A stretch of DNA of 64,000 nucleotides. Origin: Euglena gracilis (taxonomy: Eukaryota). The notes beneath the pieces are model-generated. The model worked only from the letters and a program-made list of their open reading frames with translations, had not been told where the DNA came from and did not search any database. Shown in pieces: positions 1 to 49,058 of this stretch (position 1 is the stretch's first letter; every line of letters begins with the position of its first letter). The position numbers and the translations under genes are program-made. The DNA is taken from the NCBI GenBank assembly GCA_039621445.1, contig CP154954.1, forward strand, positions 3,353,715 through 3,417,714. The letters are read 5' to 3'.

Positions 1-21
1 ATGTATGTATGTATGTATGTA

Positions 22-2275
22 AACCCCCCCCAAAAAATAAGACCCCCCCCAAAAATAAGACCCCCCCCAAAAATAAGACCCCCCCTGGGCCGATCCAGCA
101 AAAATCCAAAAATAAGACCCCCCCAAAATTAAGACCCCCCCTGACGGACACAAGAAAAGAGCCAAAAATACAGTCTCCCCTTCTTGAAAAACATGCAACA
201 AACGGTTGAGTTGGAATACATTTCTCGAAACGACATGCACCAGTAGCACAGCTTCACTGTGTGCATGGCCCCCGGGGTCAGGGTCTTTGGCCTCTTTTTA
301 TTTTGTCCCAATGCATGGCCATCCTCGGAGTGTGTTTAGTGTGCCGTGATGGTTGCTCCCCGCAATTTGGGTTCCACTTCGATGGCGAAGATCTTACGAT
401 AGTTGTTCTTGAAGATGAAATTGTGTTCGGTGTCAAGGTATTGAACAACTGATGTTGTCCCCTCGGGGATCCTTGCAAATTGCGTCTTCGCCGACACGTC
501 CTTCTTTGCACACTCTGTGAAATGTGCCCTTGCAGAATCCCCAATAAACAGCCGCTGTTTGTTGCCCAGGAACGCATCCCACTCTGCATAAATGAGGTTC
601 ATCAAATCTCCATCCACAACACCTTTTTGTTGGAAGTAAGCGCCGGGACCTTTTTTGTGGTTTGTGGTGTAAAATATCAAACACTGTTTTTTCCCCATTG
701 GAAACCGAAAACCGGAAGAGCACAATCAAGCACAGCCCCGAAAAACAGACACATCAGGGTGGTACATCGCTGTCTCCTCAGTTGAAATATTCCCCAGACC
801 TTTGAAAATGACAATTGGCTTTGGCTGCACCACTTCAGTGCCATCCAGGCTGAGAATAACCAAGGGCAGGTACGTGAAGAAGCGCTTGGAATCTTCTGAA
901 GCGTTCGTTCCAAATGCAATGGTGTCCTCCGTGGACATGCCCTCCTTCAACACCATTGACCGCACAAACTCGCCGTTGAAGCTAACAGGTGCCTCATCAA
1001 AGTTGCCAGCAATCCGTTGCTCGATACACTTTCCCCAGTGATTTAGGCTTCTGTGCATGCTTTCCATACCCAGAAAAACATAATTCAATCAAACAACGTG
1101 CAATACTAACTAATGCGAACACGTCGCTACGTTGACCCCCAGGTTTGCTCGTTATCAAACGAGCAAACCTGGGGGTCTTTTTTTGGGCGCAAATCATTTT
1201 TGGTGTATTATTGCTGCCTAAAAAAAATCCAACTTATATGAACAACGGATTGGACCCCAACAATTTGGAATTGGAAGAATTGGTGCAGTGCTTGTACAAA
1301 GGTGTGGAAAGACGCCAAGCGGTCCATCAAGGTTGCCTTGTCCACCTTCATCGTCGGCTTCTCGCGCTGAAATTTCAGGTGATGTCGACGAACGAACAGC
1401 TCCTGCCAACGGTCGCCCAGCTTTGCCGTGATTCCCAGTTGAGTTCGGATGCAAGCAACCTGGTTCCACAATGCAGCAGGTCGCACCACTCCTTTGGAGG
1501 ACTCGGCGTCATACCATGCCATCACCTTGTCCTCCAGTTCCTGGTGTGCAGGTTTCTTTCCAGGCTTGCCAATACTTTTTCGACTCTGCAGAGACTTGTT
1601 CTTTTTGCGCAAATCTTGTAGCAGCTTCAAAATGCTGTCTTTCTTTTCCACATACTCTCTTACTTGTTTACTGCCTGAACTTTGTGACAAATTGAAAAAC
1701 TTTGCTGTGGCATGCTTGCTCTTTGACACGTTTTCAAAGTGGTAGACAATGCAAGCTTGTGTGAGCAAAGTCGGCCTTTCTCGCTTCTTTTTGTCTTTGG
1801 TTTGCTTGTCGACAACTTGCTTGATAATCCGCAAGACGGCTTCTTTGGCATCTTCCTTTGGTTTGGGATCCCCTGCTCCACTTACTTCAGCAAGGGCGTC
1901 GTCCGCAACTGGGGTCCCTTCTTCAGCATTTGCAATCTCAATGATTAAGTCATCCATGGCTGGGGCCTTTTCTTCTTCTCTGACAACTTCCAACTCTGAG
2001 TCTTCATCTTCTGATGGTAATTCTTGTGTGGCAATTGGAGCCATAGATAGCCCAGCCAACATGTCTTCAGACGTCACATTTTGATTTTGACTCATTGCTG
2101 AAGAGTGCGAGCAACACAATAAGAAAATTGTTGTTCACTGGCAAAATCCAGATTTTTTGGAAATTTTCGAGCAAAAATCCAAAAATAAGCCCCCCCCAAA
2201 AATAAGACCCCCCCTGGAGGCTTCCAGCAACGGACCCAAAAATAAGACCCGGGTCTTATTTTTGGGGGGGGGGTT
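22..2275 (-). mobile_element. pogo/Tigger-like (Tc1/mariner superfamily) DNA transposon
   Basis: TIR AACCCCCCCCAAAAA(A)TAAGACCC / GGGTCTTATTTTTGGGGGGGGGTT, TA on both sides inside (TATG)n; subterminal AAAATAAGACCCC repeats; encodes transposase. Confidence 0.9.
336..2095 (-). CDS. pogo-family transposase, spliced (exons about 2095-1256, 1004-744, 638 to about 370; C-terminus uncertain)
   Basis: CENP-B-type HTH (GKKPAHQELEDKVMAW...WQELFVRRH), catalytic NFDEAP, FIGDSARAH, VQYLD (34 residues between the last two Asp); frame restored by two paired-end introns. Confidence 0.85.
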
Positions 2276-2276
2276 T

Positions 2277-2725
2277 ATGTATGTATGTATGTATGTATGT
2301 ATGTATGTGTGTGTACCTATGTATGTATGTGTGTGTGTGTATGGATGTGTGCATGCATGAACGGATGGAGGAAAAGATGGATGGATGGGTGGGTGGATTG
2401 GTGGGTGGGTGGGTGGATGGCTAGATGGGTGGATGGGTGGATGGTTAGATGGGTGGATGGGTGGATGGATGGGTGGATAGATGGATGGATCGATGGATGG
2501 ATGGATGCATGCATGCATGCATGCATGCTGCATGAATGCTTGTATGCCTGTGTGTTGTATGTATTCACATCTGCATGCATGCATGTGTGTACATACATAC
2601 ATGTGTATGTGTGCATGTGTGCGTATGTGTATACACATCCATCCATCCATCCATCTATCCATCTATGTATATATGAATGCATGTAATGTATGTATGCATC
2701 TGTCTATTTATCTATGCATCCATCT
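2277..2725. repeat. Compound microsatellite (TATG)n/(GGAT)n/(ATGC)n
   Basis: Direct reading. Confidence 0.95.
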
Positions 2726-2809: not shown

Positions 2810-2908
2810 GAAGTTGCCGACGAGACACTCGCCAGTGTGGATCCCTGCACGGAACTTCAGCAGTGGCAGGCCGCCCGCCCGCCACGACATATGCAGGTCC
2901 ATGACGCT
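2810..2908 (-). CDS. Cyclase exon 23 (SVMDLH...RAGIHTGECLVGNF)
   Basis: RxGIHTG..VGN motif; CTGctgct| and |ggcCAGGG. Confidence 0.95.
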
Positions 2909-5900
2909 AGCAGCAGGGTCAGCCGAAAGCCCAAATGCTTTCCTTTGGCACAGACTCTGGATGTCTTGGTTACCATTCGGTGGATTACATGTGTCTTGTA
3001 ACTTCACTGCAGGCAGCAAAGGGGTTTATTCATCTCAGAGCCGCTGGGTGGAGGTCATTAAATGTTGGCGTTTAGTTTTTGGGGCAGGGAAAAGACATTG
3101 AAAAACAAGCTGAAAAGCGCCGGCAACACATTTTCACTGGACACTGGTATGACGCTTTTCACCAAACACTGCGGTTTGAACGGGTGGATGGGTTGTGGGT
3201 CACTGGGGGGGGGGGTCCAGTGGCCCACAATCCATCCACCCGCTCTGAGGTGGGGTGTGCCATGAGTCAGTTTGGCCAGGTCAAACTGATCTGTTTTCAA
3301 GGGTTTTCAGTCAATTTTGGGTGGGCAAGGTCCCCAAAGAGGGATGAGGGTTTTTTTGCCCCCCCCCCTCCTGTAAGAGGGAGAGAGTTCTGTTTCGTAG
3401 GATGAAATATGGGGGTTGAGTGGCCGCCCACACATTGCCCTGAACCTTGAGTGGTGCATCCCTGCTGCCTGTTGCGTGTCAGCACGTTGCCATCATGTTA
3501 GGGAAGCGTTTGCGTGCGAAAGTTGGCATAAACTTGATGGGCTTTTTAAACAACGTTCATGTGTTCATTTGTTGTTGTTTTGGAATTTTCCTTGAAAATT
3601 GTTTACAATATGAAGTATGTGCTACCACCTTTCAATTGTAAGCAGAAACACATGCCCTAAAAGAATCACCCCCCCCTGGGAACCGAGAAACCTGTACACC
3701 TGGGGAGGGGGGGGAAGGACTTTCCAGCGTGACACGACAGCCGGTAGGTACGAGCCCCAAGGTGCCAACTTCCCTGGGGGCGGGGGGGGGGAGGTAATGT
3801 GTGGCGTCGCCCTGGGGGGCCTGCATCGCCAGCGAGGCGGCCACAGCGTCCCCTCTCGGGCCAGGCCAGCCTCAAATCAACCGAGCAAAAAAACAACGTT
3901 CCACCAACATCGCCATGGCGCAGCCCCGCGGTGGGGCAACAGTGGGGGGAGGGGGGGGGGCACTTCTTCCCCTTCTGGAAGCACAGAGTTTGAATGTCCA
4001 GGGACCACGAATCTCCCGCTCTGGTCAGCGGGGGGGAGGGTAGTTGAGGCTGAAATGAGGCCCAACCTTTGCCCCAACTGACCCATTGGGACCTGCCCAA
4101 TCCTCACGCAGATCTATTCCGACCGCCACCCCTGAACCCGGATGCCATGCTTCCAGCCGGCTTTTCCAGCGGTCAGAATCACAGAAGGTAACCGCATTGA
4201 CTGCCAACCCCCACTGCGTTGGATGACCCCTCACTCCATCGTATCTGGTTGCACTGTTTTTTTTATATTTTAGAGAGTTGCTGATCTTTCCAGCCTTTCG
4301 GCTGGGTTTTCGTTGAATAGTATATTGAGATTTGGGGGATAGCCAGTTCTTAGAACTGGCTATCCACCCTGGGAAGCTGTCCTCTGGGTTTGTACCTAGC
4401 CCCCCCCCCCACAGGGAAACTGTCACCTGACAGGTTGTCCGGTGCCGGGGACCCTGCCAAATCCCCATCATGCTGGTTTGCTCCGACCCCACAGCAAGGC
4501 AGGTCACCGCCGTCCAATTACCATATCCTGACCCCCCCCAGGTCCGGACTCGCAAGATTGGCATCACAGGGAGTTGGCCCCTGCCAAAATATCTGTGTTT
4601 TTGGGGGGGCAAAATCGGTCCCAAAAAACGCCGGGTGAAGTGAACTCTGTTCGCTGGTTTGGCCATGTGAGGGGCCATTTGGGGGGAGTACAACGTTAAA
4701 TGGGTTGCACATGACCGGAGAGCGGGACAAAATGGCGATAATGCAGCAGGGAAATGCCCCAACGATCAAGCAGCCTAAGCTTCCAAAGTGCGAACTACGG
4801 AGCTGTTGATGCAGTCGCCGATGAACTTGTCAATGGTGCCGTTGTGCTGCACGATGTTGGGTTGCTGGGCCCCGCACGGCTGTGCCAGAAAAACTGGTGG
4901 AGAAGTAGACCCCTCCAGGTTGGGATATACGCTTTTATCTGATGATTATGTGGGTCTTTGGTCTGTCATTACAATTATTGACCATTGTTGGTGGCTGTGC
5001 TAAGGATCAGCTTTGAAAGACAAGCATTCTCCGAGTGGGTGACAACGTGGTGTGGGTAGGAAAAGTCACTGTCCGCATTGCCAAATGATGGCGAATGGTG
5101 AAGACCTCCCTAATACCCCACCTCCCTTTCCTGCTGATGAGCCCTTGACTTGTTCTGACCCCTCCCCTGCCCCAAGAAACTGTCACCTGACGAGTCAGCA
5201 GGGTGACAGGTCAGGAGAGCGGCCCAAAATGTATGGAATTTTGATGATTTGTTTGGATTTGGAGTCATTGGTGGACGCTGCGATGGGGAAGCCTCACTCT
5301 CTCCGTGAATGCAAGGGAGGGGAGGGGCTGAATTTCCTCCAATTTTGGGTGAGCTCCCTCCAAGCGTGTCTTTTTGGGGGGTATAAGGCTTTCCACCCTG
5401 AAAAAAACTAGTAAGGAACTTTTTCCCAAAAAAAAACCAGTCAGTCGCTTTGCCCCCACCCCCCCCCCCCTGGGGGGATCGGCCACTCTTGAATGCGCTC
5501 ATGTCGCTCATGTTGGCAAGGCAATATTGCCAAAAAGTTTCAAAAAATTTCCGGCGCCTTCGGCGCCAGGCCAGCTACTTTTCATTTTCAGGCCTACCCC
5601 ACCCCAGGGGGGGGGGTCTCTTGGCCTGAAAACCAGCTAGTCACTCTGAAAAAACCAGTCAGTCCCCCCCCCCGGTGGGGTGGGACAGGTATTAAGCAAT
5701 GGTATGATAAGGACAGGTCTGCAAGTACTGGACCAGAGGACAGTTTCCCAGAGGCCTACCTTAGAAGACATTGACAATTTTTGTCCCTCCAGTCGACACA
5801 AAAAAAAATCGAAACTGCGGGGGGTTCACAAATTTGTGATCAGAAGCCGGATAAAAATGAAAGCAATTATTTTGGGAAATTGCTGTTTTCAACATCTTTA

Positions 5901-8900
5901 CAACAATCTTTGACTGCCCTTGGAAAATAGACACCTGAAAATCTTTTAAAATTCCAAGATGCCTTTAAAAAATTTAAACCCTTAAAAAAGCCTTAAATAA
6001 CCCTAAAAAAAAATGAAAATTTTAGTCTTAAAGATAATAATGCACCCATTACGCACCCGTGCAAAGAAAAATCCTTCGGCGCCGAAGGAACTTTTTGACC
6101 TAAGAATCGGTGCCTCCGGAAATACGGAAAGCTCTGGAGGGTGGGCTCTTTGTGGTTCCACACCATGGTGTCACGGTTCTTTTAAAGGTTGACAGGGAAG
6201 GCATTTTCACACGGCTTTCCGGGAGGAGCTGCCAACAGATCCCCCCTGGGAAACTGTTCCCCCCGGGAAAATGTCCTCCACCCTCTGTGCCCGCTCACCC
6301 TACAAGGGACTACAGAAATCCCCGAAACCCTGTGGGTGGTGGGGGGGGTCGACTGCCCCCCCCCATCCTGGCGGGTGGGAGGGGGAATAACAGGGGGACG
6401 GAAAAAGGATTCTCGAAGGACAAAGAAATGGGGGAAAGAAAAAACACACACAAAAACACATAAACACTCACACACAAAACGACAGTTACATGAAAATTGC
6501 TTCTAAAGAAACTGCCTGGGATGCATGATGTCTGCTGGAGAGGTTATATGTTCTGCAGTAAGGTGCATGTTTTGGACAACTGTGCCAATTTTCCTCTCAA
6601 AAAATCTAAAAGGATGATCAAAAACAGCAAAAAAAAATCCAAATTATGTAGAAAAATGTGCATTTAAAGAAAATGGTCTTGATATGTACCCGCCCCCCCC
6701 CTTGTCGTACGACCGGGTTGCTGCAACCTGTGACCGGGGGGGGTCGTAACACCCCCATAACCTGCAACCTGTGACTGGGGGGGGGGGTCGTAAATGCGGG
6801 GGCGGTCGTAGGTGGTGTTAAAATTTTCGCAACCTGCAACCTGTGACCGGGGGGGGTGGTCATAACACCCCCATGACCTGCAACCTGTGACCAGGGGGTG
6901 GTCATAATGAGGGGTGGTCGTACGACAGGGGGGGGGGGCGGGTAGGTGATTAAGAATTCGGAACATTTGTTGCCAAAGAAAAAGGGGGGGGACACAAAGA
7001 ATGCGAAACACACAGATTTCCAAAATAAAAAAAGCACAAAAAATGCAAAAAAAAAAACAAGACGTGTTTGTTCACACATGCCTCTCCCTCCACTGGGAAT
7101 GGGACTTGGGCGCCAAGAAGTGAGGCTCACTGCCAAGAAGGGGCCCAAGGCGCTGCACATGGCCTCGAAGTACTCCGTGCACACGGAGACCAGCGTGGCG
7201 GGGGTCTCCTTCTCACAGATGGTGGAGAAGCCCTCGATGTCCGTGAACATAATGGTCAGTTTCTCAGCAGCAGGCACCGCTTTGGTGCTATCCCACTGTA
7301 TTGGCCATTCCCCGCTGACCCGATACACCGAATGGAAACTAAGAAAGGAAAAAAGAACATAAAACAAAACGGTGGGGGAAAAAAACGATCAAGATAAACT
7401 GCAACGGTCATTTTGTACGAGTGTTCGTTGTAAAATTGTGAAATGGTAGCTTCCATTGCTGTCGTTCCGCAGCCAACATTTCATAGGGCTTCAAAGGTTT
7501 GTGGTGCTGAACATCGCTTTCATTCAAGGAAAAAAAGCACCAAGCAACAAGCAGCAAAGATTCTCACCACCAATCGTCCAGTTCCTTTCCAGACAAATGC
7601 TGGCCTGGTTGGGGTACATTTGATCGTTTGCCTGCATTTTGCCAGCAATCAAAACCAGTCCCCGGGTGGATGCAAACGTCTCAAAAGAACCAAACAACAC
7701 GCCAAATCATGGAGGAAAAGCAAGGGTGACAGCAAATGAAATTTGCAAAGCATCACTGCATGCCGGAACCACGCAATCACTGCATTGTTAAACAAACATA
7801 AAACTCCCCCTCACCTTTTGTGCTGTACACCTGTGGACAAATATTTATTTTCTATTCAGATTTCGTGGTTCAACTGTGGACACCCAAAAAAACTGTTGTG
7901 GCTCAAAAGTATCTTGTGAACCACATTACATACATGTCTGCCCCACCACGCTTCCAGCCAACACTGACCTCACCAGATCGTAATGCAGATGCTTCTGATT
8001 CCTTCCCTTCATTTAAATCACAGACAATCAAGGGGCATGACAGCATGCGACAACGTTGGAGAGGGGGATGGGGACACGAAGCCCTTCTTTCCTGCGGAGA
8101 AAAAAATGCAAAGACAAACGGGTCTATTTGCTGGCTGCATCGAAAGGAGTTCCATCCCAGTCACGTCGCAAGGTGTGGCAATGCCCATACAAAAAGAACT
8201 ACTCAACCAACCCACAGTTCAGCCGGGAGGCTGCCCAGCACTTTCACCACCGCCTGCGGCACGAACTTCCCATGCAGGGATTTTTGGGACAGGTCTGAGG
8301 GGCTGGTGAGGGGGGGGACCCCTACCTGACACACCACAGCACTGCGAAAATAAAAATTCAAAATTCCTTCGGAGAGAGAAGGTGCCGAGAAAAAAATGAT
8401 GCGGCCTAAAAAACGGCACCCCAGAAATAGGGGAAGGCCTGCAGGGGGGGGGGGGGCGACCCCCCCCCACCCAACCACCCATGGGGTTTGGAGATTCCCC
8501 ACAGCCTTGGGTGGATTGGGGGGAGCCGACAGCTGGGTGGACCTGGGCTGGAACCAAGAAATTGCCCACATCTGTTCCATATGGTATTTGCCACAGTTTT
8601 GTCCCGAACCTTTTTAAAATGGGGGGGGGCACTTCTCCCTGGACCCAAACCCACGCACCCGCCCATTTTTTTGGAAAACCCACCCACCCACGAACTCCCC
8701 CCCCCCGGGATCAACCACCCATCCACCTAACCTCCCACACAAGCAAATTCGGCGGAAAACGCCGAAAAGCGTTTTCCGGCCTTCGTCTGGGCCAAAATCT
8801 GACCCAAGACTCAGGAGGGGGTGGTTCGAATCCACCCACCCACTCTCGAAAATCCCCTCCCCAGGGCGGGTGGGTTCAGCCAGATGATAAGTGAACCTAT

Positions 8901-17900: not shown

Positions 17901-18669
17901 GCTGGAAAAAAAGTGCTGGATGGCTGAAACCCCCGCAGGTAGGGTCCCTCGGGCTTAAGAAAACCCTGCTAGTTTCATAGTATCCCTCAGGATGATAAAA
18001 ATGTGTCATCGGTGAATTGACGAATTTACGAAATAGCAACAGAAGTACTCAAGGCACAAACCCCCTTGAACGCCCTTGGATGTCGAATATTGTCGAGGGG
18101 AGTCATTTCAGACCACCAACAAGCAATGGCATAATTCGGATGGCATTAGAGGAAAGCACAGATTACAAATCCTTGCTATCTAACCCCCATATCATCATCA
18201 CACACTCAGAAAAAAATAAAGCCAGCGCTGGGTGCTATCATGTAGCCATTGGGCTGGCGGAAAAAAAGCACAAGCCGGTCTCCTGCAAGTGTCCCCAAGA
18301 GAGCAGGTATCAAGTTATCTTCTGGTGTTACATTTATGTACATATAATATTTATAGGCATAAACATGCACACATACATACATACATACATACATACATAC
18401 ATACATACATACATACATACATACATACATACATACATAGATACATACATACATACATAGATACATACATACATACATACATACATACATACATACATAC
18501 ATACATACATACATACATACATACATACATACATACATACATACATACAGACATACATACAGACACATACATACATACATACATACATACATACATACAT
18601 ACATACATACATACATACATACATACATACATACATACATACATACATACATACATACATACATACATA

Positions 18670-18713
<44 letters not shown>

Positions 18714-18882
18714 TACATACATACATACATACATACATACATACATACAGACATACATACAGACATACATACATACATACAGACATACATACATACATAC
18801 ATACATACATACATACATACATACATACATACATACATACATACATACATACATACATACATACATACATACATACATACAT

Positions 18883-18931
<49 letters not shown>

Positions 18932-18995
18932 TACATACATACATACATACATACATACATACATACATACATACATACATACATACATACATACA

Positions 18996-19027
<32 letters not shown>

Positions 19028-19145
19028 CATACATACATACATACATACATACATACATACATACATACATACATACATACATACATACATACATACATAC
19101 ATACATACATACATACATACATACATACATACATACATACATACA

Positions 19146-22100: not shown

Positions 22101-25100
22101 CTGCGTCACGTTGCTTTGTGGGTCCACACTTTGTCCGCAACCCTAAAAAAATGCATCTGTCAAAACGTGCGGCTTCAATTTTCTTAAATAAAAAAACAAG
22201 GATGGATTTGGAGGAAGGGATGGAAACAGAGATGAAAAGTAATACAACGAACAGGAGTTTCTTCCAAAAGAAAATAATATTTTTATTTCAGGAAACAAAA
22301 CTTCTCTTTTGCTTCTTTCTTCTTTCAGGAACGAAAAGCATTTGTTGCAATAAAAAAAAACAGAGAACGGAACAATTCAGGGCGGCCCCAGCCCAGAACT
22401 GACACCTTTTCATTGGCGGCCATCGCCATTGGGGTGCTGTACACTGTGCGGTTCCCGAAGGTGCTGTTGAGGAAAGTGTTGTAGAACGCCACGAACGTTA
22501 CAAAGAAAGTGGGGATGTAGGAACCAGGGGCAGGGGCAACACGAAACCTTGGACGGGTGACCAGACACATTGCTTTGAGTTGAAAGAAATGCAGCGCGAC
22601 AGAAGACTATCCTCAAAATCCATCAACAATCTGATTTATATGACCACAGGTGAAAAATTTGGCAACGTTTTGCCACGTTACTAATCTAACACCAACCAGA
22701 AAAACACAAAGCCCCCCCCCCGCCAGGTTGAGCTCCCCAAGGGTGCAAATAAGGGCCAGGCGATGAATTTTTGGGGCGGATGTTGCGACTTTTCAAAAAG
22801 AATGATTTTTTATGCCCCGGAAAGTGAAAAAGCCACTACCATGCAGCCACCCGAAGAGTGGCTGGAAATAAATAAACCTAAATAAACAAACAAAGGAAGC
22901 AAAAATCTCAGGGCCGGAAGAAGGCAGCTGGCTGGAAAAAGGCTGCTGGCTGACCCCCAGGGTCAAGTTTTCTTGCCCTGGGGGCAAGAAAACCAAAAAA
23001 AATGGGCCAAAAAAATAGGACAAAAATGCGCGAAAATGGGTCAGATTGAGATTGGAAAAATTTGGGGCCAAAACCCTATTTGTTTTGCACAATTGGCAGT
23101 TTTTTTTGGACATTTTTTTGCGCTTTCAATTTTTTGGTACCTAGTTCGACCGTGGGCCGGCCCCTGCTCCAGCCTGGGACCTCTGGGGGCGCGGGAGGGT
23201 CAGCCAGCAACCTTATTCCAGCCATCCCAAATTTTTCACCCTCTGAGCTGGACCCCCTGGGGCTTGTTAAAAAAAAACACCCTGGTGGCAACTGCAAGCA
23301 GTCACAGTATTTGCATATGTGTTTGCGCACATGTTGTTGCATATGTATTGTGCACACTGTCGGAAACTTTCTTGAATGTTTCTCTGCTCCTGTCATCAGA
23401 TGGATGCAACCAATCAAAATATTATTTCTAATAAAATATGTAATATAAACCCCCCCCAAATATAAAACCCCCCCGGTTTTATAATTGGGCGGAAATTTCA
23501 AGACCCCGAGGGGGGGTTTTATATTTGGGGGGGGGGTTATATTCGGTCGGAAAAATCAACTTCCCGGTGGGCTGAAGTAGACACTTTTTTGGTCTAAAAT
23601 AACAAATACGCCCACCCTTGGGGGTCCAAAAACTTCATTTTTCGGGCGAAGGAGCAATTTTCACATGTTTTGGTAAAAATTGTTCCCAAATCTGCCAAAA
23701 ATGACAATTTTGGGAGAAATTTTGTCGAAAATTTTTCCTTCCGGCGCTTCGCGCCGGAGGGGGGGTTTTATATTTGGGCGGGATTTCAAGGTCCTCAGGG
23801 GGGGTTTTATATTTGGGGGGGGTTTGTATTTGGGGGGGGGGGTTATATTTGGGGGGGGGGTTAGTATTGAACACAGGGCTGGATTGAGGTTTGCAAAAAA
23901 ACCTCAACCTCAATGTCGACAACCTCAACCTCAACCTCAACCTGAAAGTCGCCTCAATGTCCAAAAAAAATGAGAAAATTGAACTCACAAAAAGCATCAA
24001 CTGGACAATCTCTTCTTGAAAACCCTTCCTCAAAGACAAGTTTGGTAAGTTTGTGTCAACGCACAACATATTCGGTTTGGAAACAAGAATAAATGCGTGG
24101 GTTGGTGATTTTAAAACTTGAGATAAATGATGAATTGCTCAATTTTTTGAAAAAATCCAGGTAACTTGCAAAGTTTTTGTTATTGACTCTTTCTCCTTTG
24201 AATTTTGACCAAAAAGTGACATTGAGGTATCATTGAGGTTGGAAAACCTCAACGGATGTGTATTTGGGATTTTTTGTAGAGAGTATTGGGTCGATAGGGA
24301 ACAAGGCTCGTAATTTTGCCTCAAACCCCATCCAATCGTCCCCATATTCCCCTTACTCAGCCCCCTCAGATCACACCATTGGGCCTTTGGGCCTTTAGAG
24401 GAATCTGTTTTGCCAACCCCTTTGGCGTAAACCCCTGATACAAAGTCCTTCAACACCATACATAAACCCGCCCCCATTGAATAACCTGGTCATATACAGT
24501 ATGCAGAAAATTCCTTCAAAAATGCCTGGGGATGTGCTCTTTTCTGCAGGAGAAGACGTCGAAAAGTTTCCACCTTCTCCTTAAAAGGAAAAATGTTTCA
24601 TCGTGCATTTTTTATGTAGATTTTGGGAGCATCCTGGATCGAAACATGTGCCATTTGAGGGCAAAAGCCACAAATGACAAAACTTTAACAAAAAAAAAGG
24701 TCTAGGGGGAAAATCAGGGCCAAAATGCAGAATTTCTCAAAGTCAAAAAAAATTCCAGCAAAAATCAATAAACCAGCGGGGAAAGAACAAAAATCCACAA
24801 ATTTTGGCAATATCAAAAACACAAAAAACAAAATGAGTTTGCATCCCACCCTCGCAATATGACCCGCCAATGAGACCCAGCTTTTATTCTCCAGGTGGTC
24901 AACTTGACTTTGACACCTGAATGCAACTACACCTACCTCACCTTGCACGTCAGAGGGACCATGTGACACCTCCCCAGCAGGAAAATGACAACCTCAAGAT
25001 GGGACAGGTACACATTTGCAAACACCATTCGAAAAATCACCGGTTAAAAGGCGAATTCCACACCTCAAAGAAGAAGATGTGAAAGGTTGTGGAGACGTTC

Positions 25101-29410: not shown

Positions 29411-29977
29411 CCCTCACCCCCCCCCCTAATTCCCCCCCCCTAATTGGCTAATTGGGGGGTCCTTAAGGGAGGTCCATTAGCCAATTAGGGGGGGTTACCA
29501 TGCCCCCCCCCATATAAGACCCCCCCCCATATAAGCCCCCCCCCATATAAGACCCCCCCTGGCCGGCCGAAGGCCGGCCCTTTGGCCGGGACCGACCCCC
29601 CCCCCATATAAGAACCCCCCCCATATAAGACCCCCCCCCTAGGATTTTGGCTCCCGAGGGGGGGGTCTTATATGGGGGGGGCATGGTAGCCCAATTGGCC
29701 AATGGACGTTCCCTTGGCCAACTTTGGCCAATTTCGGCAAGGGCTCAGAAAACCTCCAAAATCGTCCGTTTCGAAAATGTTAAAAATTGCCAGATAAGAA
29801 AAAGTCATAACCAATCCAAAAATGCTCAAAAAATCGACCAATTTTGCACACGTCAAAAATTATGGGGTCGGGGTCCTCGAGCCCCCCCCCCCCCCTAATT
29901 GTCCCCCCCCCCTAATTGGCTAATTGGGGGTCTGAAGGAGCCCGGCCATTAGCCAAATAGGGGGGGGGGGGTGAGGG
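29411..29977. mobile_element. TA-flanked MITE containing nested CCATGCCCC MITE (29498-29686)
   Basis: TIR CCCTCACCCCCCCCCCTA / TAGGGGGGGGGGGTGAGGG. Confidence 0.8.
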
Positions 29978-41589: not shown

Positions 41590-43472
41590 ATTCTATACTA
41601 TACTATACTATGGGGGTCGACACGCCGTGGCGAGCCGTCCGGCTAGGGGGGGGGGAGGGGCGTGGCGAGGGGGTCCAGATGGGGGGGGGGGTGCGGGGGT
41701 TTTCCAAGAAAATTTTCTTTGGCGCGGCTGACATGGCGTGGCGAGGGGGTCTGAAAAGGGGGGGAGGGGGGGGGGTAAAATGGCGTGGCGAGGGGGTCGG
41801 TGAGGGGGGGGGGGGAGGGGTGTGCCGACCCCCCTATACTATACTATACTATACTATACTATACTATACTATACTAGACTATACCATACTATACTATACT
41901 ATACTATACCATACTATACTATACTATGCTATACCATACTATACTATACTATACTATACTATACTATACTATACTATACTATACTATACTATACTATACT
42001 ATACTATCCTATACTATACTATACTATATCATACCATACCATACTATACTATACTACCATGCCCCCCCCCCATATAAGACCCCCCCTCGGGGTCTTATAT
42101 GGGGGGGGGGTCGGTCCCGGCCAAAGGGCCGGACTTCGGCCGACGAGGGGGGGGGGTCTTATATGGGGGGGGTCTTATTGGGGGGGGGGCATGGTATACC
42201 ATACTATACCATATTATACTATACTATACTATATACTATACTATACTATATACTTTACTATACTATATACTATACTATACGATATACTATGTTGTACTAT
42301 ATACTATACTATACACAAATATATATATATATATGTATATATATATATGTATATATATAGAGATAGAGAGAGATAGTGTATATATAGAGAGATATAGATC
42401 TATAGAGAGAGAGAGATAGAGAGAGATATATATATATATATAGAGATATATCTATATAGATATATATATAGAGAGATATAGATATATAGAGAGAGATATA
42501 TATATATATATATATCTATATATTATATATACTACACTGTACTATACTATTTACAATACTATACTATGCTGTACTGTACTATACTATACTATACTATTCC
42601 ATACTATACTATACTATACTATACTATACTATACTATACTATACGAATATATACTACACTATACTACACTATTTACTGTACTATACTATACTATACTGTA
42701 CTATACTATACTATACTATTCTATACTATACTATACTATACTATACAATACTACACTATACTATACTATACTATACTATATACTATACTATATACTATAC
42801 TATATGCTATACTATATGCTATGGGGGGTCGGCACGCCGTAGGGGGGGGGCGGGTTTGGCGTGGCGAGGGGGTCCCGGATGGGGGGGAGGGGTGCGCGGG
42901 GGTTTTCCAAGAAAATTTTCTTTGGCGCGGTTGACATGGCGTGGCGAGGGGGTCTGAAAAGGGGGGGGGAGGGGGGGTAAAATGGCGTGGCGAGGGGGTC
43001 GGTGAGGGGGGGGGGGGGAGGGGGGTGCCGACCCCCCTATACCATAGCTGGCGTTTTTTTGTTTTTTATTGAAAAAAACGGGCAAAAAAACAGCAAAAAA
43101 AACAAAGGGGAAAATGATGGTCCAATTTTTGCCTTTGATCGCAAGGGTGAACTGTACTATACTATACTATACTATACTATTCTGTACTATACTATACTAT
43201 ACTATACTATACTATACTGTACTATACTGTACTGTACTGTACATAGTATAGTTATAGTATAGGATAGCATAGTATAGTATAGTATAGTATAGTATGGTAT
43301 AGTATAGTATAGTATAGTATAGTATAGTATAGTAAAGTATAGTATAGTATAGTATAGTATAGTATAGTATAGTATAGTATAGTATAGTATAGTATAGTAT
43401 AGTATAGTATAGTATAGTATAGTATAGTATAGTATAGTATAGTATAGTGTAGAAAAGCATGTAGTATAGTAC
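41590..43472. repeat. (TATAC)n/(TA)n/(GA)n arrays with MITEs 41609-41836, 42057-42194, 42820-43039
   Basis: Direct reading; GGGGTCG(G/A)CAC...GTGCCGACCCC family also at 51345-51592. Confidence 0.9.
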
Positions 43473-46400
43473 ATAGCTGGCACTTCGTTAAAAACGAAGT
43501 AAAAAAAACACGTTTTTTTTTAAAAAAAACACGTTTTTTTTAAAAAAAAACATGTTTTTTTATAAAAAAAAACAACAAAAAAACGCCATTGAGGGTCCAG
43601 GGCAAAAAAAAATGCCTTTAATTTTAGCTTTTTTTGCCCATCCTCCGTCAGAGAAAGACCCCAAATTTGGGATGTTTCAAGTTAGTTTGGAATGGTTTCC
43701 CTATTTTGACCATTCTTGTTGACGACAACCAAAAGTATTGGTTTTGAGGCTCAACCGACTGAAAAGACAAACTTTTCTTGAAAAGACAGAGTGCCCCCAG
43801 AAAAAGTTTCTCAGAAAAAGTTTCATTTTGGGAAAAGAATCCATCCTGAGCTGAATAGAGATGTGCGAACTGTGTCAGATGTTGCACGAATATGTCACAG
43901 AAATGTCCAGAAGAAAACATTCACAGGATTTGTTGGAATAGTGTCTTGAAATACTTGTGAACACATGCCACAGACAAATGAAACGATGCAAAATGAAGCC
44001 ACAGATGCATGGAGGCATGTCACATCAAGTGACCAAGTGGTCCCAAAACTAAGAAAAAAAGGTTGCCATTACATTGCAACAAAATAGACAAACAAAAAAC
44101 CATCGAGTTTCTAGGCACAGCAACAGGAATCAGAAAACACACACAACAACAGCAACAACATGGAGCAGTTTTTTTAGCAGGGACATGCTCAGGTCCTGAT
44201 TAGGATCTTCCAATAAAGTTCATCCCACCTCAAGCTAAGTCAGGTTGGGGAAATTCTCCACACCTGTAAAGATTCTTGAAACCGTGTTTGGGCCGATTTC
44301 GAGACTTTAAACGTCTTAAATCTTCGTCCAAAACACGGTTTCTATATCGAGAACTGTGTCCCAGACGCCGGTTCGGGCGGGAAACCTGCCGCCCTACCGC
44401 CCCTACCGCCCTACCGCCCTACCGCTAGGGGCGACCACGGCGCCTTCGGCGCCGCGGTCCCCGCCCCTGGGCTCCCCCTAACTCTTGGCCCAAACACAGT
44501 TCTTGACACAGAACACAGTCTGTTCCTCAGCTTGGCGTTGGTCTTGACTTGTAACTTGAATTTGAAACTTGATCTTGATAACATAAACTTCAGAAACACA
44601 TCCTTGTAACTTGAACCCCTCCGAGTTTCACTTCTCAGACATCTGCTGTGAAAAACACTTCTTTACTAGGGCACGTTGCCTGCCTGCGGCAGTTGGAGCA
44701 TGCCTGGAGAAAAATAAGGAATGGGGATTGTTACCGCAATTTGGGTAACATCGCGGGGTTTATTAACGCGGGGCCTATTAGCACGCTTCGGCCGTGGAGC
44801 GCGCGGTAATATAGCGCGCCTAAAATGGCCGCGTTTAAGCCCGAGCGGGAATTACCCACCCGCGGTAATTGTCGGTCCCTAGTGTATAGTATAGTGTATA
44901 GTTTAGTATATAGGGGGGTCGGCACACCCCTCCCCCCCCCCCTCACCGACCCCCTCGCCACGCCATTTTACCCCCCTCCCCCCCCTTTTCAGACCCCCTC
45001 GCCACGCCATGTCAGCCTGGAAGGGAAATTCCGCCAGGGTGACCAATAGGGGGGGGGGTGACTAACTCGGGGGGGGGGGTAGCAATTTTTGCCCAAATTT
45101 TGCCCCCCACCCAAAGTCTTGGGGGGTTTCAAGGTTGTTTTTGGGAATTCCAGGGCACTTTTCATGGATGCCAACAAGGCGTTTTTTTCACAGAAAAATA
45201 TTTCCCGTCGGAATTTTTTTTTGCCGGGGGCCCAAAGGTGACTAATAGGGGGGGTGACTAACTCGGGGGGGGGGCATGGTATATACTATACTATATGCTA
45301 CACTATATACTATACTATATACTATATTATATACTATGCTATGGAGCTGGGGTATCTGGATAGCCGCGGCTAGCCGCGGCTGGCTGGCTGGCAAAAAAAG
45401 GAGGAGGACTGGCCAGCCATGGCCAGCCACGGCTGGCTGGGTGGGTTTAGAGGAGGAGGAGGTCTGGCTGGCTTCAGTGTTGAGGATCTAAAAGAGGAGG
45501 AGGAGGTCTGGCTGGCCGCGATGGGAAATTTGCCGAAAAAAACCCGCGATCTGGGCAAGTCCGAATTCAAAGTGTTTTCTGCACAAAATGTCAGACCTGC
45601 AGTACGGAGTCATTTGACCTGGGCAAAGTGGCAGCTTTGATTGATATGACGATATATTTGTGTTTGTTGTGGTCATAATGCTGCTTTACTGGTGGCTCCT
45701 GATCCACAACCAGCTGTGGTCCCCACTAGGTTGAACTATCAACATCCATCTGGCTCTGGCCTGGTGGCCCCCCCATGGCCCACGTGCAAGTTTAATTGTC
45801 ACTAGCAGATTCAATTGCATGTTTTCTTCCCTGGTTCTGTGCTTTGCCCTTTTATGGGAGAAGGGGGTCCCGGCAAGAGATCTCAGAAAACTCCCTACAT
45901 CATTTTCCCATGACCATGTTCCACCAGTCTGCAGGGTTCCCGTTTTTTTGTTTTAAAACAAAGCAAAAAAACTTTCATGAATAAAAAACGGTTTAAAAAC
46001 GGTTTTTTTGCTTTAAAAAGGGGTGTTATTTTTAAATAAAACACCACAAATAGGAAAAAATCCTGTTTTAAACAACGTGTTTAAAAACAGCCCGGGAACC
46101 CTGCCAGTCTGGGGGGGATGTGGTTTTGTGGTTTCCATCACGAGTTTTGGCGGGTTTTAATTTTCGGCTATGTTTTGCCTTGCCCTGGGAAAAGCTCCTT
46201 CAAACAGTTTTTTTTCAGCCCAGGCACAGCATTCACCCCCCTCCCCCAGTTTGGTGCCACATCTTGTCCACAGATTGGGGAAACATTTTGGTCCAGTTGA
46301 TCGCCTCAATTTGCAGTTTGTTTCACAACTTTGGGCCACTTTGGTGCACGCACCTTTGGTGCCACAGGTGGGCAACCTTTTTCCACATCTTGGTCACATT

Positions 46401-47206
46401 TTGGCTCCATTTTCCTGGCACATCTTGTGCACAGGTGTGGACCACAACTCTTGGCCACAGATGGGGGAAACCTTTGACTTTTGTGTCTGCCTTGGGCACC
46501 CACTTGGGGCCAGTTTGGTTTGACCCTCGACGACGAAAAGGGAGGGAAACTGGGTTGGCGTTCCATACTGGACCAGAGTTCCCTTTCAGCGAAGCCGAAG
46601 ACCACCTGATTGTGAAGAACAAAAAAAACACAAAATCTTTTGGTCTCTAAAATTAAAAAAAAACGAGTTTTAAAAGACAAATGATGAAGATACCGGGCCC
46701 TGTGTGATGCGCGCTCAATTGGGATTAAGGGGAAGAATTTGAAGAAAATTCCGAAAATTCAAGAAGACACCAGAAACACAAAGAGTTCAGAGAGTTGACG
46801 TATCATGAAAAGATGCCAAAGATTGCAAGGTGGCCAAGAGGCCAAAAGTCAGGGACGGCAGGAAGACTGTAGCACCCAGAAAAGGAGACATTTTGAATGG
46901 GCCAGATTTGGCAATCTCAAAAGGTATTTCAATTGCCTCTTCAGTCAAAGAGTTCAGGTTTTTTGTCACCTGAAACAAAATGCACAGTTCTGGGGCTTTT
47001 GCCTGGGAAATTAGGAACAGAGAATGTTAATTTGTCTGGTTTCGTTTGCCAGCGCCCCCCGCCGCCAACGGGCACACACCAAGGATGCCCTATGGGCCCC
47101 ATTTGTTTCTCACTCGTATTACAGGAAATTGTGGAAAAAATACGAAACGACACAGGCCTGTTGTGGAGTGCCTGGTATTTGAATGATGGGGAACTCATCG
47201 GTCAAC
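43233..47206 (+). repeat. Segmental duplication, copy 1 (about 4 kb)
   Basis: Near-identical to 60022-64000, offset about 16.8 kb. Confidence 0.95.
45932..46103. mobile_element. hAT-type MITE with perfect 8-bp TSD (copy at 62728-62898)
   Basis: CCAGTCTG-CAGGGTTCCCG...CGGGAACCCTG-CCAGTCTG. Confidence 0.92.
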
Positions 47207-47372
47207 CAGAAAGTATTAATGCTGCAGTACAACTCTTGAAGGACCTGGGCCCAACAGTGGGCCTACACCTGAACCCGCAAAAGTGCATCACCTGGGGTCC
47301 CTGTGGTGCAGAAATTGCTGCAAAGCACAACATGACCCACAAACAATGGCAACCGGGGGAGGGAATTAAAGG
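47065..47372 (+). pseudogene. Non-LTR retrotransposon reverse transcriptase fragment (frameshifted copy at about 63860-64000)
   Basis: GTHQGCPMGPICFSL, AWYLNDGELIG (YLDD-like), GLHLNPQKC. Confidence 0.85.
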
Positions 47373-49058
47373 GGGTTTTCGGGACGCGGGGGGGACGCGG
47401 GGGGGGACGCGGGGGGGGGGGGGGCGGGGGGGGGGGCCGCGGGCAGAACACCTTCGGGATGTTGTTTAACGTAACCCCCCCCTATTTGTCACCCCCCCTG
47501 ATAGTCGCCCCCCCTTGGTGGGGCGACAATTAGGGGGGGTTACCCATGGACCCACGGAAATGTAGGGTAAATTGAATACCTTCCCTAATTGTCGCCCCCC
47601 CCCCCAATAGTCGCCAAGGGGGTCAAAACGCTCCGGGGGGGTGCCATATAGGGGGGAAGGGGGGTCACGTTACCATGCCCCCCCCGAGCTATTCACGTCC
47701 ACAGGACCCTTTACGGCCCAATGGGAACAGTACGGGGGGGGGAACAGCTAGGGGGCGGGGACAGAGGTATTCCCATACCCGACCCTCGAGCAACCCAAAA
47801 GGGCTCATTTTGGCAACTGTTTTGGATGCTCGCAAAAAATGGTCAATTTTATGCACATTTGCCAAAAGGTGATTTTTGAAAATGGTCCAAAAACGTCGAT
47901 TTTTGACCACTTTCTTAGGAAGTTCTTTATAAAAAGTGCTATGACAGTGAGCTATTCCCGTACCCCCAATGGGAATAGCTCGGGGGGGGGATAGCTCGGG
48001 GGGGGGGGGGCATGGTATAGATGGACAAAATCCAACCTACCCCCACCCCTATTGTCCGCCTGGCCGACGGGGGATTTTTTTGGCTCGGCCAATGAAATTC
48101 CTTTGGTACCCCCATATTGTCCGGTCGGGCCTCCCGGGGGGAGGTCGGTGGGACAATAAGGGCGGGGGGGGGGGGGGGGTAAATTTCCATCATTGACGAA
48201 GGGAGGCAAAAAAAATAATGGTCTGTATGACTCTGGCACAGACTGCAGCATGGACTTCCTTCGGAACGTCGTGAAGACAAAATGGGAAAAGTGGACAGGT
48301 TATGGGGCACTGCAGGCATTGTGGAAAAAGTACGGCCCCAAAGAATTTTTTTGGACAAGAGCTCGGGCTCGCAGATGGGGCGTACAGTGGCAACTGCAGC
48401 CTGGTTGGCCCTTTCGGAAACCCCCCAACAAGGCTCTTCCCACCGCAAGCATTGTTCGGCATTGAAAAAAATCTGCGAAAAACATGGCGCAAATCGGGAC
48501 GCGGGGGGACGCGGGGGGGATGCGGGGGGGACGCGGGGAGAAAACCCCCAAAGTATTGGGTTTACCGATCAAAAACCGGGTGGAACAGGCTTGCCGAGCC
48601 CAGGGTTAAAAAGTGGAAATTTTCTGCGCCGGATTTAGAGGGAAAGGTTTTCATGCCCTTGGGCTTCAACTGTCATCTGCTCTGCCCTCAACGTGTAGAT
48701 TTCCATTTGCGACCCACACTGCCCTTACCGAAAAGTGCAAAGGGTATTTCCCCCGACTCGGGGGCGGCGCCGGCGGGGGAGGGAGCCGGCGGGGGCAAGT
48801 AAGCTTAGGCACCAAAAGAGGAGGAGGCACCCCAGCCACGGCCAGCCGCGGCTAGCCATGGCTGGTGGCTGGAAAAAAATAGGAGGAGGAGGTCTGGCTG
48901 GTGGCTGGAGAGAAAAAGAGGAGGAGGGGGTCTGGCTGGTATCTGACTGGCCGTGGGGCCTCCTATATACTATACTATATACTACACTATATACTATACT
49001 ATATACTACTATATATATAGTATATAGTATATAGTATACTATACTGTATACTATACTA

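What the first reader, a model, noticed from the sequence alone, without database searches (positions are those of the whole stretch)
639..1255. A transposase gene interrupted by host-type nonconventional introns
Removing 1255-1005 (gtcCAATCCGTTGTTC pairs 13 bp with GAGCAACGGATTGctggc) gives FQIVG-NFDEAP. Removing 743-639 (tttCGGGGCT / GGTCCCGgcgct) gives DVSV-YFQQKG. Both use the +4/-6 register and rebuild a full DDD triad. Such an element would look dead to standard annotation, would depend on the uncharacterised euglenid splicing machinery, and sits inside a nonconventional intron on the same strand (introns within an intron).
Basis: partly seen in the sequence, partly recalled or inferred. 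Interest (0 to 1): 0.8.

Follow-up and report, generated by a model that had tools for sequence, protein, structure and literature searches.

The report
Transposon gene split by Euglena-type introns
A cut-and-paste transposon copy carries a transposase gene broken by two extra stretches that look like the odd introns of Euglena-like algae; one is cut out in an RNA-like data set, the other is unproven, and the copy itself is probably crippled.

Summary
The sequence facts hold. On the minus strand lies a 2,254-bp pogo-like DNA transposon (22-2275) with terminal inverted repeats and a TA target duplication. Taking out 1255-1005 and 743-639 gives one open 467-codon frame with a D-D-D triad. A profile of 21 relatives aligns to the joined product without a gap at either joint.

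Intron 2 (105 nt) fits the tested Euglena nonconventional splicing code: N3-CGG/CCG-N5. One contig of an RNA-like run skips exactly these 105 nt; 0 of 98 contigs of a DNA-like run do.

Intron 1 (251 nt) has a 13-bp end helix in the right register (1 of 200,000 shuffles). Its motif is CAA/TTG, not CDG/CH'G. The only RNA-like contig at its 5' edge runs on unspliced.

The rebuilt protein stops 31 residues after the third D and lacks the family's C-terminal tail, so this copy is probably not autonomous.

"Intron within an intron" cannot be tested: the host intron's 3' end lies off the window.

Verdict: partly supported. It combines two known things and is of modest interest.

The parts
20..21 (.). 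TA target-site duplication, left copy
   Evidence: TA flanks both TIRs. Removing the element and one TA restores the (ATGT)n microsatellite in register.
22..45 (.). Terminal inverted repeat (3' end of the element as transcribed)
   Evidence: pair I1: arms 21-45 and 2251-2275, 25 nt, 92% complementary.
43..137 (.). Subterminal copies of the TIR motif (43-63, 61-81, 106-120, 118-137)
   Evidence: pairs I2, I3, I6 and I9.
130..335 (-). 3' region after the stop codon. It shows no similarity to the C-terminal tail of relatives and is much more abundant than the coding part in the DNA-like run.
   Evidence: tblastn with 11 tails found nothing significant. X1 depth is 833-848 at 189-326, against about 75-135 inside the element.
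336..638 (-). Exon 3 (100 codons plus TAA at 338-336). Holds the second and third catalytic D (539-537, 434-432).
   Evidence: DDE_1, 22.2 bits against a cut-off of 22, profile positions 48-133 of 177..
639..743 (-). Intron 2, 105 nt, nonconventional type: ttt-CGG...CCG-gcgct, followed by T. It contains an in-frame TGA.
   Evidence: X15 contig 11 lies on 546-637 and 743-999 and skips 105 nt (placement free by 2); 12 of 15 bridging relatives show one 35-codon gap, 4 of them exactly at 743-639.. Code from PMC12501133.
744..1004 (-). Exon 2 (87 codons). Holds the first catalytic D (998-996).
1005..1255 (-). Putative intron 1, 251 nt: gtc-CAA...TTG-ctggc, followed by A. It has a 13-bp end helix and an internal perfect 20-bp hairpin at 1134-1177.
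   Evidence: MFE -102.4 kcal/mol, z -9.24; pair I5. No RNA joint was seen: X15 contig 12 covers 1188-1507 unbroken.
1256..2095 (-). Exon 1 (280 codons from the ATG at 2095): acidic N-terminus and the DNA-binding region.
   Evidence: HTH_Tnp_Tc5 only at E 0.18; relatives P0001, P0015, P0021 and P0029 align here.
2179..2250 (.). Subterminal copies of the TIR motif (2179-2193, 2190-2210, 2235-2250)
   Evidence: pairs I4, I8 and I10.
2251..2275 (.). Terminal inverted repeat (5' end of the element as transcribed)
   Evidence: pair I1.
2276..2277 (.). TA target-site duplication, right copy
2810..3025 (-). Host exon of an adenylate/guanylate cyclase catalytic domain (...FRAGIHTGECLVGNFG), upstream of the element on the same strand.
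   Evidence: PDB 3r5g_A CyaB residues 94-125, E 0.0012; an earlier part of the domain lies in the frame 6621-7388 (Guanylate_cyc, E 8.8e-5, profile 6-42).

Best explanation
What it is: the window's left end holds one copy (22-2275, minus strand) of a pogo-like (DDE_1, D-D-D) cut-and-paste transposon. It inserted at a TA inside an (ATGT)n microsatellite, downstream of a cyclase exon of the host and in the same orientation.

Its transposase gene carries two intervening sequences of the host's nonconventional (euglenid-type) kind. In that kind of intron, the ends pair from +4/-6 inward, and the cuts fall 3 nt upstream of the 5' arm and 5 nt downstream of the 3' arm.

Shown:
- Both stretches are exact additions relative to the protein family.
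- Intron 2 (743-639) obeys the tested code and is absent from an RNA-like contig.
- Both stretches are also present in a second, diverged genomic copy, so they travelled with the element.

Inferred:
- Intron 1 (1255-1005) was acquired as the same kind of intron, but with its CAA/TTG motif it is spliced poorly or not at all.
- This copy is an internal-deletion derivative that lost the C-terminal part of the catalytic domain. Even its fully spliced product is therefore probably inactive, and the copy would need a full-length relative to move.
For: Transposon identity:
- TIRs of 25 nt (92% complementary) with subterminal repeats.
- TA duplication; the empty site restores the microsatellite.
- DDE_1 in exon 3: 22.2 bits against a cut-off of 22.
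- Among 21 relatives scanned: DDE_1 in 7, HTH_Tnp_Tc5 in 2, CENP-B_N in 1. P0007 scores 35.2 bits over profile positions 19-155.

Exact borders:
- 35 relatives were found at E <= 1e-3.
- 15 of 35 give one tblastn alignment from exon 2 to exon 3. 12 of these 15 have a single 35-codon gap: 4 exactly at 743-639 and 6 one codon off.
- 7 of 35 have alignments abutting on both sides of intron 1. P0001, for example, reads ...VVG-NFDEAP... without a break.
- A profile built from 21 relatives matches the joined product as one domain (286 bits, nodes 3-220) with no gap at either joint. The unspliced read-through splits into two domains with 33 unmatched residues.

Intron 2:
- It reads N3-CGG ... CCG-N5. 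CGG-CCG introns were shown to be spliceable by knock-in (PMC12501133, Results read in full).
- X15 contig 11 (387 nt, depth 6.2, 0 mismatches) skips 105 nt there. 0 of 98 X1 contigs do.

Intron 1:
- A 13-bp helix in register (1 of 200,000 shuffles).
- Ends paired in both the MFE and the centroid fold, z -9.24.
- A purine starts exon 2.

Inherited with the element:
- An X1 contig on 614-771 carries intron 2 with 11 substitutions and 1 insertion.
- Another X1 contig carries the 3' part of intron 1 with its junction (differences at 993, 1010, 1017, 1039, 1049).

Mobile family:
- X1 also holds deletion derivatives (for example 285->2087, skipping 1801 nt) and roughly 10-fold higher depth at the element's ends.
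Against: - The RNA nature of X15 and the DNA nature of X1 are the tool's guesses. The splicing evidence is one contig at depth 6.
- That contig leaves the window sequence at 546 for 38 unlike letters, which are absent from the window. It is therefore not simply the mature mRNA of this locus.
- For intron 1 no joint was seen. X15 contig 12 runs 68 nt into it without a mismatch.
- The intron 1 motif, CAA/TTG, fails the CDG/CH'G rule. Single changes within CAG or CTG abolished splicing in the published assay.
- Intron 2 starts the next exon with T, not the preferred purine. Its overall fold is not unusual (z +0.70).
- I could not learn whether the contiguous relatives were predicted from DNA or from RNA (unavailable). 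'Intron gained' and 'intron spliced out' cannot be told apart for them.
- The frame lacks profile nodes 221-280 and Pfam DDE_1 positions beyond 133 of 177.
Confidence: 0.6

Rival explanations
1. Only the 105-nt stretch is a working intron. The 251-nt stretch is a dead insertion: a decayed or never-functional intron-like or MITE-like piece with inverted ends. It frameshifts the gene, so this copy and its near kin make at most a 295-residue DNA-binding fragment.
For: - The CAA/TTG motif violates the positions (G at +6, C at -8) whose single mutation abolished splicing (PMC12501133).
- X15 contig 12 is continuous across the predicted 5' splice site (1188-1507). The same run does splice intron 2.
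- Read-through ends at a stop after 15 extra codons.
Against: - The inverted ends sit exactly 3 and 5 nt inside the borders that homology defines, which is the intron register and not a TIR-plus-duplication layout. The 8 flanking nt are not a target duplication.
- The CAA/TTG change is compensatory and keeps the pair.
- 38.8% of annotated nonconventional introns do not fit the consensus pattern.
- The stretch is not repeated elsewhere in the window. In X1 its depth is about that of the neighbouring exons.
- All 467 codons around it remain open.
Confidence: 0.27
2. Neither stretch is spliced. Both are insertions in a dead copy, and the contig that lacks the 105 nt comes from DNA of an insertion-free paralogue or allele.
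For: - X15 is only guessed to be RNA.
- Many relatives are contiguous at both sites.
- The contig leaves the window sequence at 546, as a different genomic copy might.
- Many family members are visibly decayed, with frameshifts in P0006, P0012 and P0027.
Against: - The contig is identical to the window over 349 nt on both sides of the skip. The DNA-like run, with 98 laid contigs and depth 80-160 there, shows no such joint.
- X15 covers the exons but not the middle of either intron, and it does not show the 10-fold excess at the element's ends that the DNA-like run shows.
- The skipped stretch fits a code whose chance occurrence at fixed borders is 383 in 200,000.
Confidence: 0.08
3. The element's RNA is not its own transcript. 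It is part of the host cyclase pre-mRNA or intron, and the nonconventional machinery trims any fitting hairpin-ended stretch in it. The 'introns' would then have no meaning for transposase expression.
For: - The element lies downstream of a cyclase exon on the same strand.
- The published synthetic-intron work shows that the signal alone suffices for removal at a foreign site.
- The copy lacks the C-terminal tail.
Against: - This does not explain why both stretches lie exactly where the family is contiguous and restore one 467-codon frame.
- It does not explain why they are kept in a second diverged copy.
- No data on the host transcript were obtained.
Confidence: 0.05

Closest known systems
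Nonconventional introns of Euglena (code 5'-N3CDG/CH'GN5-6|R; Nomura et al. 2025, PMC12501133; consensus CCAGG/CCTG in E. gracilis, PMC11170887)
   Same: - No GT-AG borders.
- Ends pair from +4/-6 inward.
- Cuts fall 3 nt before the 5' arm and 5 nt after the 3' arm.
- Intron 2 has the tested CGG-CCG variant and is missing from an RNA-like contig.
- Intron 1 has a purine at the next exon's start and a long helix.
   Different: - Intron 1 has CAA/TTG (A-T instead of G-C at +6/-8), a variant not tested in the text I read. Its removal is not shown.
- Intron 2 is followed by T, not a purine.
- The host gene here is a transposase inside a mobile element.
pogo / Tigger-type DDE_1 transposons of the IS630-Tc1-mariner group
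   Same: - TA duplication and TIRs with subterminal repeats.
- A D-D-D triad with 34 residues between the last two.
- DDE_1 domain; HTH_Tnp_Tc5 and CENP-B_N signals in relatives.
   Different: - Very divergent: Pfam scores are near threshold, and the window's DNA-binding part is not significant (E 0.18).
- This copy lacks the end of the catalytic domain.
- The introns are of a non-GT-AG kind.
- That other DNA transposons (P, Ac, Drosophila pogo) carry ordinary introns is recalled, not from a call.
Transposon-derived introns (introners, MITE-like origin proposed for euglenid nonconventional introns; review PMC11282704, passages read)
   Same: Inverted ends that bring the intron borders together, and recent gain at new positions. 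Here the stretches are present in this subfamily and absent from most relatives.
   Different: - Neither intron is a repeat within the window, nor high-copy in the DNA-like run.
- No duplication-like direct repeat flanks intron 1. Intron 2 has only a 2-nt slide.
P-element third-intron retention giving a repressor (recalled, no call)
   Same: If intron 1 is retained, the product would be a 295-residue N-terminal DNA-binding fragment without the catalytic domain.
   Different: No evidence that such a protein is made or acts. The intron is of a different type and the transposon of a different superfamily.

Membership tests
Euglenid nonconventional intron | 3-nt spacer, then C-D-G at +4..+6 | tested here: inconclusive
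   Intron 2: ttt+CGG, met. Intron 1: gtc+CAA, not met at +6. Rule from PMC12501133.
Euglenid nonconventional intron | C-H'-G at -8..-6, complementary to the 5' motif, followed by a 5-6-nt spacer | tested here: inconclusive
   Intron 2: CCG+gcgct, met. Intron 1: TTG+ctggc; it pairs with CAA, but the first base is T, not C.
Euglenid nonconventional intron | Base pairing continuing inward from the motifs | tested here: met
   13 bp in intron 1 and 7 bp in intron 2. The end helices appear in the MFE and centroid folds.
Euglenid nonconventional intron | Purine at the first base of the downstream exon (a preference) | tested here: inconclusive
   Intron 1: A, met. Intron 2: T, not met. An A-to-T variant was still spliced in one of the two tested backbones.
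Euglenid nonconventional intron | Removed from RNA at exactly these borders | tested here: inconclusive
   Intron 2: one contig of the RNA-like run X15 skips 105 nt at 638-742/639-743/640-744, and none of 98 X1 contigs do. Intron 1: no joint seen; one X15 contig runs 68 nt into it. The library type of X15 is a guess.
Euglenid nonconventional intron | Excised as a full-length circular RNA | not testable with these tools
   Known from the literature (review PMC11282704, passage read). No suitable data here.
pogo-like DDE_1 transposon | DDE_1 catalytic domain | tested here: met
   Exon 3: 22.2 bits against a cut-off of 22, E 1.1e-4. Relatives P0007 35.2, P0022 26, P0014 25 and P0011 23.3 bits.
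pogo-like DDE_1 transposon | Three catalytic acidic residues in order | tested here: met
   D283, D401 and D436 of the joined product align with the conserved D columns of relatives, including the canonical-looking P0035 and P0036. This holds only after both stretches are removed.
pogo-like DDE_1 transposon | N-terminal helix-turn-helix DNA-binding domains (CENP-B_N, HTH_Tnp_Tc5) | tested here: inconclusive
   Window exon 1: HTH_Tnp_Tc5 at E 0.18. Relatives: HTH_Tnp_Tc5 in 2 of 21 (best 8.9e-4) and CENP-B_N in 1 of 21.
pogo-like DDE_1 transposon | TIRs and a TA target-site duplication | tested here: met
pogo-like DDE_1 transposon | Complete transposase (autonomous copy) | tested here: not met
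   The match ends at family node 220 of 280 and at DDE_1 position 133 of 177, where relatives reach 152-155 and P0036 reaches 170. Eleven C-terminal tails find nothing in the window.

The most novel reading that the evidence does not exclude
The family is, or recently was, an autonomous pogo-like lineage whose transposase can be made only through the euglenid nonconventional splicing pathway. The weak CAA/TTG intron 1 would act as a retention switch. Retained, it yields a 295-residue DNA-binding-only protein that could damp transposition; removed, it yields the enzyme. This would be a P-element-like self-regulation built on a non-GT-AG intron, operating even when the element is itself buried in a host intron.
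Probability: 0.1. Interest if true: 0.65.

Novelty: new member of a known kind. Interest (0 to 1): 0.35.

Why it matters
Nonconventional introns make up most introns in a sequenced Euglena genome (71.8% in E. agilis, PMC12501133), yet their removal machinery and their origin are unknown.

A multicopy transposon that carries them is a natural experiment:
- The copies are dated replicates of the same intron.
- Relatives without the intron give the 'before' state.
- A natural CAA/TTG variant sits next to a consensus CGG/CCG intron in one gene, which offers a direct test of how strict the code is.

There is also a practical warning. Transposase genes in euglenid genomes will look broken to annotation pipelines that know only GT-AG introns, so transposon activity may be underestimated.

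The finding does not reveal a new mechanism. It joins two known things.

Tried and rejected
- Own genome: not held, so no census of copies was possible.
- Runs: no RNA holder was listed.
- Raw RNA-seq runs: X22 gave 5 reads and X23 gave 0 on the element, none at a junction. This says nothing either way.
- Protein look-ups for a near-identical spliced product:
  - exon 2, longer proteins: only P0001;
  - exon 2, near lengths: none;
  - exon 1, near lengths: none.
- The listing of cluster members (to learn the source type of P0001) was switched off.
- DNA of relatives in metagenome contigs: two alignment queries were not conserved enough, and two single-protein scans found no relative.
- A third intron around the TAA at 338-336: I first thought the frame after the stop (335-129) carried a C-terminal motif. 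Pfam finds nothing there, the tails of 11 relatives do not match it, and the only N3-CGG/CCG-N5 candidate I read there pairs over 3 bp. Rejected in favour of a deletion.
- The 38 letters with which the spliced contig leaves the window at 546 are not in the window.
- Rfam: no family in the 64 kb, so no RNA marker of the organism. No tool named the organism.
- Host exon search between 7150 and 3025 by motif: nothing usable.
- Literature: three full-text searches found no report of a euglenid transposase gene with nonconventional introns (10, 789 [2 of 3 terms] and 6 papers). I saw only listings for most of them. Supplements were not opened; Datasets S7 and S8 of PMC12501133 may list CAA-TTG introns.
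Full report
**1. What is in the sequence**

Read on the minus strand, a frame opens at the ATG at 2095 and runs to 1256 (...FQIVG). It is then lost.

A second piece (1004-744, NFDEAP...DVSV) and a third (638-339, YFQQKG...) lie in another frame. All three are multiples of three.

Joined in a script, they give a 467-codon frame with no internal stop, ending at the TAA at 338-336.

The stretch 1255-1005 (251 nt) shifts the frame. The stretch 743-639 (105 nt) keeps the frame but holds a TGA.

- Intron 1: gtc+CAATCCGTTGTTC ... GAGCAACGGATTG+ctggc.
- Intron 2: ttt+CGGGGCT ... GGTCCCG+gcgct.

The helices are 13 bp and 7 bp, and both begin at +4/-6.

The acidic triad is D283 (998-996), D401 (539-537) and D436 (434-432), with 34 residues between the last two.

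**2. The element around it**

- Inverted repeats of 25 nt (21-45 / 2251-2275, 92% complementary) bound the gene.
- Further copies of the same 21-nt motif lie just inside both ends.
- TA stands outside both repeats (20-21, 2276-2277). Removing the element and one TA restores the (ATGT)n array in register.
- Exon 3 alone reaches Pfam DDE_1 at 22.2 bits, against a cut-off of 22.

This is a TA-targeting element of the pogo/DDE_1 kind, 2,254 bp long. The window holds only this one copy.

**3. Relatives fix the borders independently**

A search of 1.84 billion representatives with the read-through of exon 2 to the tail (stops as X) gave 35 proteins at E <= 1e-3. I read all of them. Many are fragments or visibly decayed copies.

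Family membership of the relatives:
- Of 21 scanned, 7 match DDE_1 (best 1.2e-8), 2 match HTH_Tnp_Tc5 and 1 matches CENP-B_N.
- P0007, P0022, P0014 and P0011 pass the DDE_1 cut-off in one stretch that spans the site of intron 2.

Laid back on the window by tblastn:
- 15 of 35 give one alignment running from exon 2 into exon 3.
- In 12 of these 15 the protein has a single 35-codon gap.
- The gap sits exactly at 743-639 in 4, one codon off in 6, and further upstream in 2. The other 3 have split gaps.
- 7 of 35 have alignments on both sides of intron 1 with abutting protein coordinates.
- P0001 reads ...VVG-NFDEAPVSFNGEF... without a break.

Profile test: a profile built from 21 relatives, none from the window, matches the joined product as one domain. 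The score is 286 bits over nodes 3-220, with no gap at either joint. The unspliced read-through falls into two domains meeting at nodes 127/128, with 33 unmatched residues.

Both stretches are therefore exact additions to the family's coding sequence.

**4. Do they fit the host's intron rules?**

Nomura et al. (PMC12501133; I read the outline and the whole Results) defined the signature by knock-in mutagenesis:
- The signature is 5'-N3CDG ... CH'GN5-6|R.
- The 5' spacer is fixed at 3 nt.
- Pairing beyond the motif is required.
- CGG-CCG variants were shown to be spliceable.
- 61.2% of annotated nonconventional introns fit this signature.

Gao et al. (PMC11170887; outline and section 10 read) give the consensus CCAGG at +3..+7 and CCTG at -9..-6 for E. 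gracilis.

Intron 2 is ttt-CGG ... CCG-gcgct|T. It fits in everything but the purine preference.

Intron 1 is gtc-CAA ... TTG-ctggc|A. It has the right spacers, a purine and a long helix. At +6/-8, however, it has A-T where the rule has G-C. In the assay, single changes inside CAG or CTG abolished splicing. A compensated change at this pair is not reported in the text I read.

Chance levels, with the borders fixed by homology:

| Feature | Shuffles meeting it (of 200,000) |
|---|---|
| Intron 2: code motif | 383 |
| Intron 2: helix of 7 bp or more | 318 |
| Intron 1: helix of 13 bp or more | 1 |

A blind scan of the element finds 59 code-plus-helix candidates, so the motif alone proves nothing.

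Folding: intron 1 folds at -102.4 kcal/mol (z -9.24), with its ends paired and a perfect 20-bp internal hairpin. Intron 2 shows the end helix, but its overall energy is ordinary (z +0.70).

**5. Read data (one call allowed)**

Four runs were laid on 120-2160.

X15 is a small contig set (135 million letters) that the tool guesses to be RNA. It gave 7 contigs:
- Contig 11 (387 nt, depth 6.2, no mismatch) lies on 546-637 and 743-999.
- X15 has no depth at 672-740 or at 1017-1154.
- It does not show the roughly 10-fold excess at the element's ends that X1 shows.

These features fit RNA.

X1 (1.5 billion letters, guessed DNA, 98 contigs laid):
- It covers all 30 bins, including both introns, at the depth of the neighbouring exons.
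- It shows no 105-nt skip.
- One X1 contig (614-771) carries intron 2 with 11 substitutions and one insertion. At least 10 of the 11 lie at 644-741. Differences within 31 nt of a contig end are not listed, so at most one falls in the 53 exon bases.
- Another X1 contig carries the 3' part of intron 1 with its junction.

Both stretches were thus inherited by at least two diverged copies.

- X15 contig 12 covers 1188-1507 without a mismatch. It runs 68 nt past the predicted 5' splice site of intron 1.
- No joint 1256/1004 was seen.
- The gap in X15 at 1000-1187 fits neither full retention nor clean splicing. I cannot explain it.
- Contig 11 also leaves the window at 546, seven bases before the codon of D401, for 38 unlike letters that are not in the window. 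The RNA may therefore come from a near-identical copy or a rearranged transcript.
- The two raw RNA-seq runs gave 5 and 0 reads and carry no junction information.

**6. The copy is truncated**

- Relatives continue for about 60 profile nodes (some 90-100 residues) after ...EVEPKL.G. P0004, P0008, P0017, P0024 and P0032 are examples.
- In Pfam terms their DDE_1 match reaches positions 152-155, and a canonical-looking relative reaches 170. The window stops at 133 of 177.
- The window's frame ends 31 residues after the third D.
- The tails of 11 relatives find nothing in the window, and Pfam finds nothing in the frame after the stop.
- The stop coincides with the start of the region that is roughly 10-fold more abundant in X1 (bins 189-326, depth 833-848).
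- X1 also holds deletion derivatives, such as 285->2087.

The simplest reading is an internal deletion that removed the end of the gene. I infer, but have not shown, that the product is inactive.

**7. The host context**

Upstream on the same strand lies an exon reading ...FRAGIHTGECLVGNFG. It matches residues 94-125 of the cyclase CyaB (3r5g_A, E 0.0012).

An earlier part of the same domain lies in the frame 6621-7388 (Guanylate_cyc, E 8.8e-5).

The domain is incomplete at 2810, so the element most likely sits in an intron of this gene. An N3-CAG can be read at 2809-2804.

That intron's 3' end would lie left of base 1, so its type cannot be tested.

**8. Verdict**

My rough odds:
- About 0.8 that the 105-nt stretch is a working nonconventional intron.
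- About 0.5 that the 251-nt stretch is removed at all.
- About 0.65-0.7 that this copy is non-autonomous.

DNA transposons with introns and euglenid nonconventional introns are both known. That transposons such as P, Ac and Drosophila pogo carry introns is recalled, not taken from a call. Three full-text searches found no report of the combination. The review PMC11282704 (passages read) already argues that these introns may themselves derive from MITE-like elements.

It is a new member of known kinds. It is useful as a natural test case for the splicing code and as an annotation warning, but not as a new mechanism.

Noticed in passing
window 23445-23534, 23796-23863, 29504-29637, 42149-42189: Further matches to the element's TIR/subterminal motif (GGGGTCTTATTTTTGG-like, 74-86% over 38-93 nt). 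They may be MITE-like relatives of the same family.
   Followed up: no
window 1134-1190: Inside intron 1, a perfect 20-bp hairpin (1134-1153 / 1158-1177) is directly preceded by CCCAAAAAAAGACCCCC. That sequence resembles the element's own TIR motif CCCAAAAATAAGACCC. It could be a remnant of a related small element or a chance match of low-complexity sequence.
   Followed up: partly
window 546 (run X15, contig 11): The contig that skips intron 2 departs from the window at 546, just before the codon of the second catalytic D, into 38 letters absent from the window. It is unexplained: another copy, a rearrangement or a chimeric transcript.
   Followed up: partly
window 1000-1187 (run X15): The RNA-like run has no depth over the 3' three-quarters of intron 1 but covers its first 68 nt contiguously with exon 1. 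This fits neither clean splicing nor full retention.
   Followed up: no
window 120-2160 (run X1): Contigs with internal deletions of the element (285->2087; 780->1463 with 30 filler letters; 140->233; 1870->1960). Depth at both ends is roughly 10-fold higher. This is the pattern of a DNA transposon family with many short deletion derivatives.
   Followed up: partly
window about 45370-47470 and 62170-64000; also 51694-52056 and 55907-57223: Long frames recur with identical starts at an offset of 16,796 bases (for example 45374-45637 = 62170-62433 and 45689-45952 = 62485-62748), which suggests a large direct duplication. The longest open frame of the window (55907-57223, minus strand, 439 codons) shares its start with 51694-52056 and has no Pfam match.
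   Followed up: partly
window 18371-19028 and 2280-2760: Long (ACAT/ATGT)n and related tetranucleotide arrays. The element is inserted in one of them.
   Followed up: no
proteins P0025, P0010, P0009, P0001 (relatives, not in the window): Some relatives carry in-frame extra segments, or break off, at other places. P0025 has 18 extra residues between ...KRMFT and YLP...; P0009 diverges two residues before the site of intron 2. These may be read-through of other nonconventional introns in other copies.
   Followed up: no
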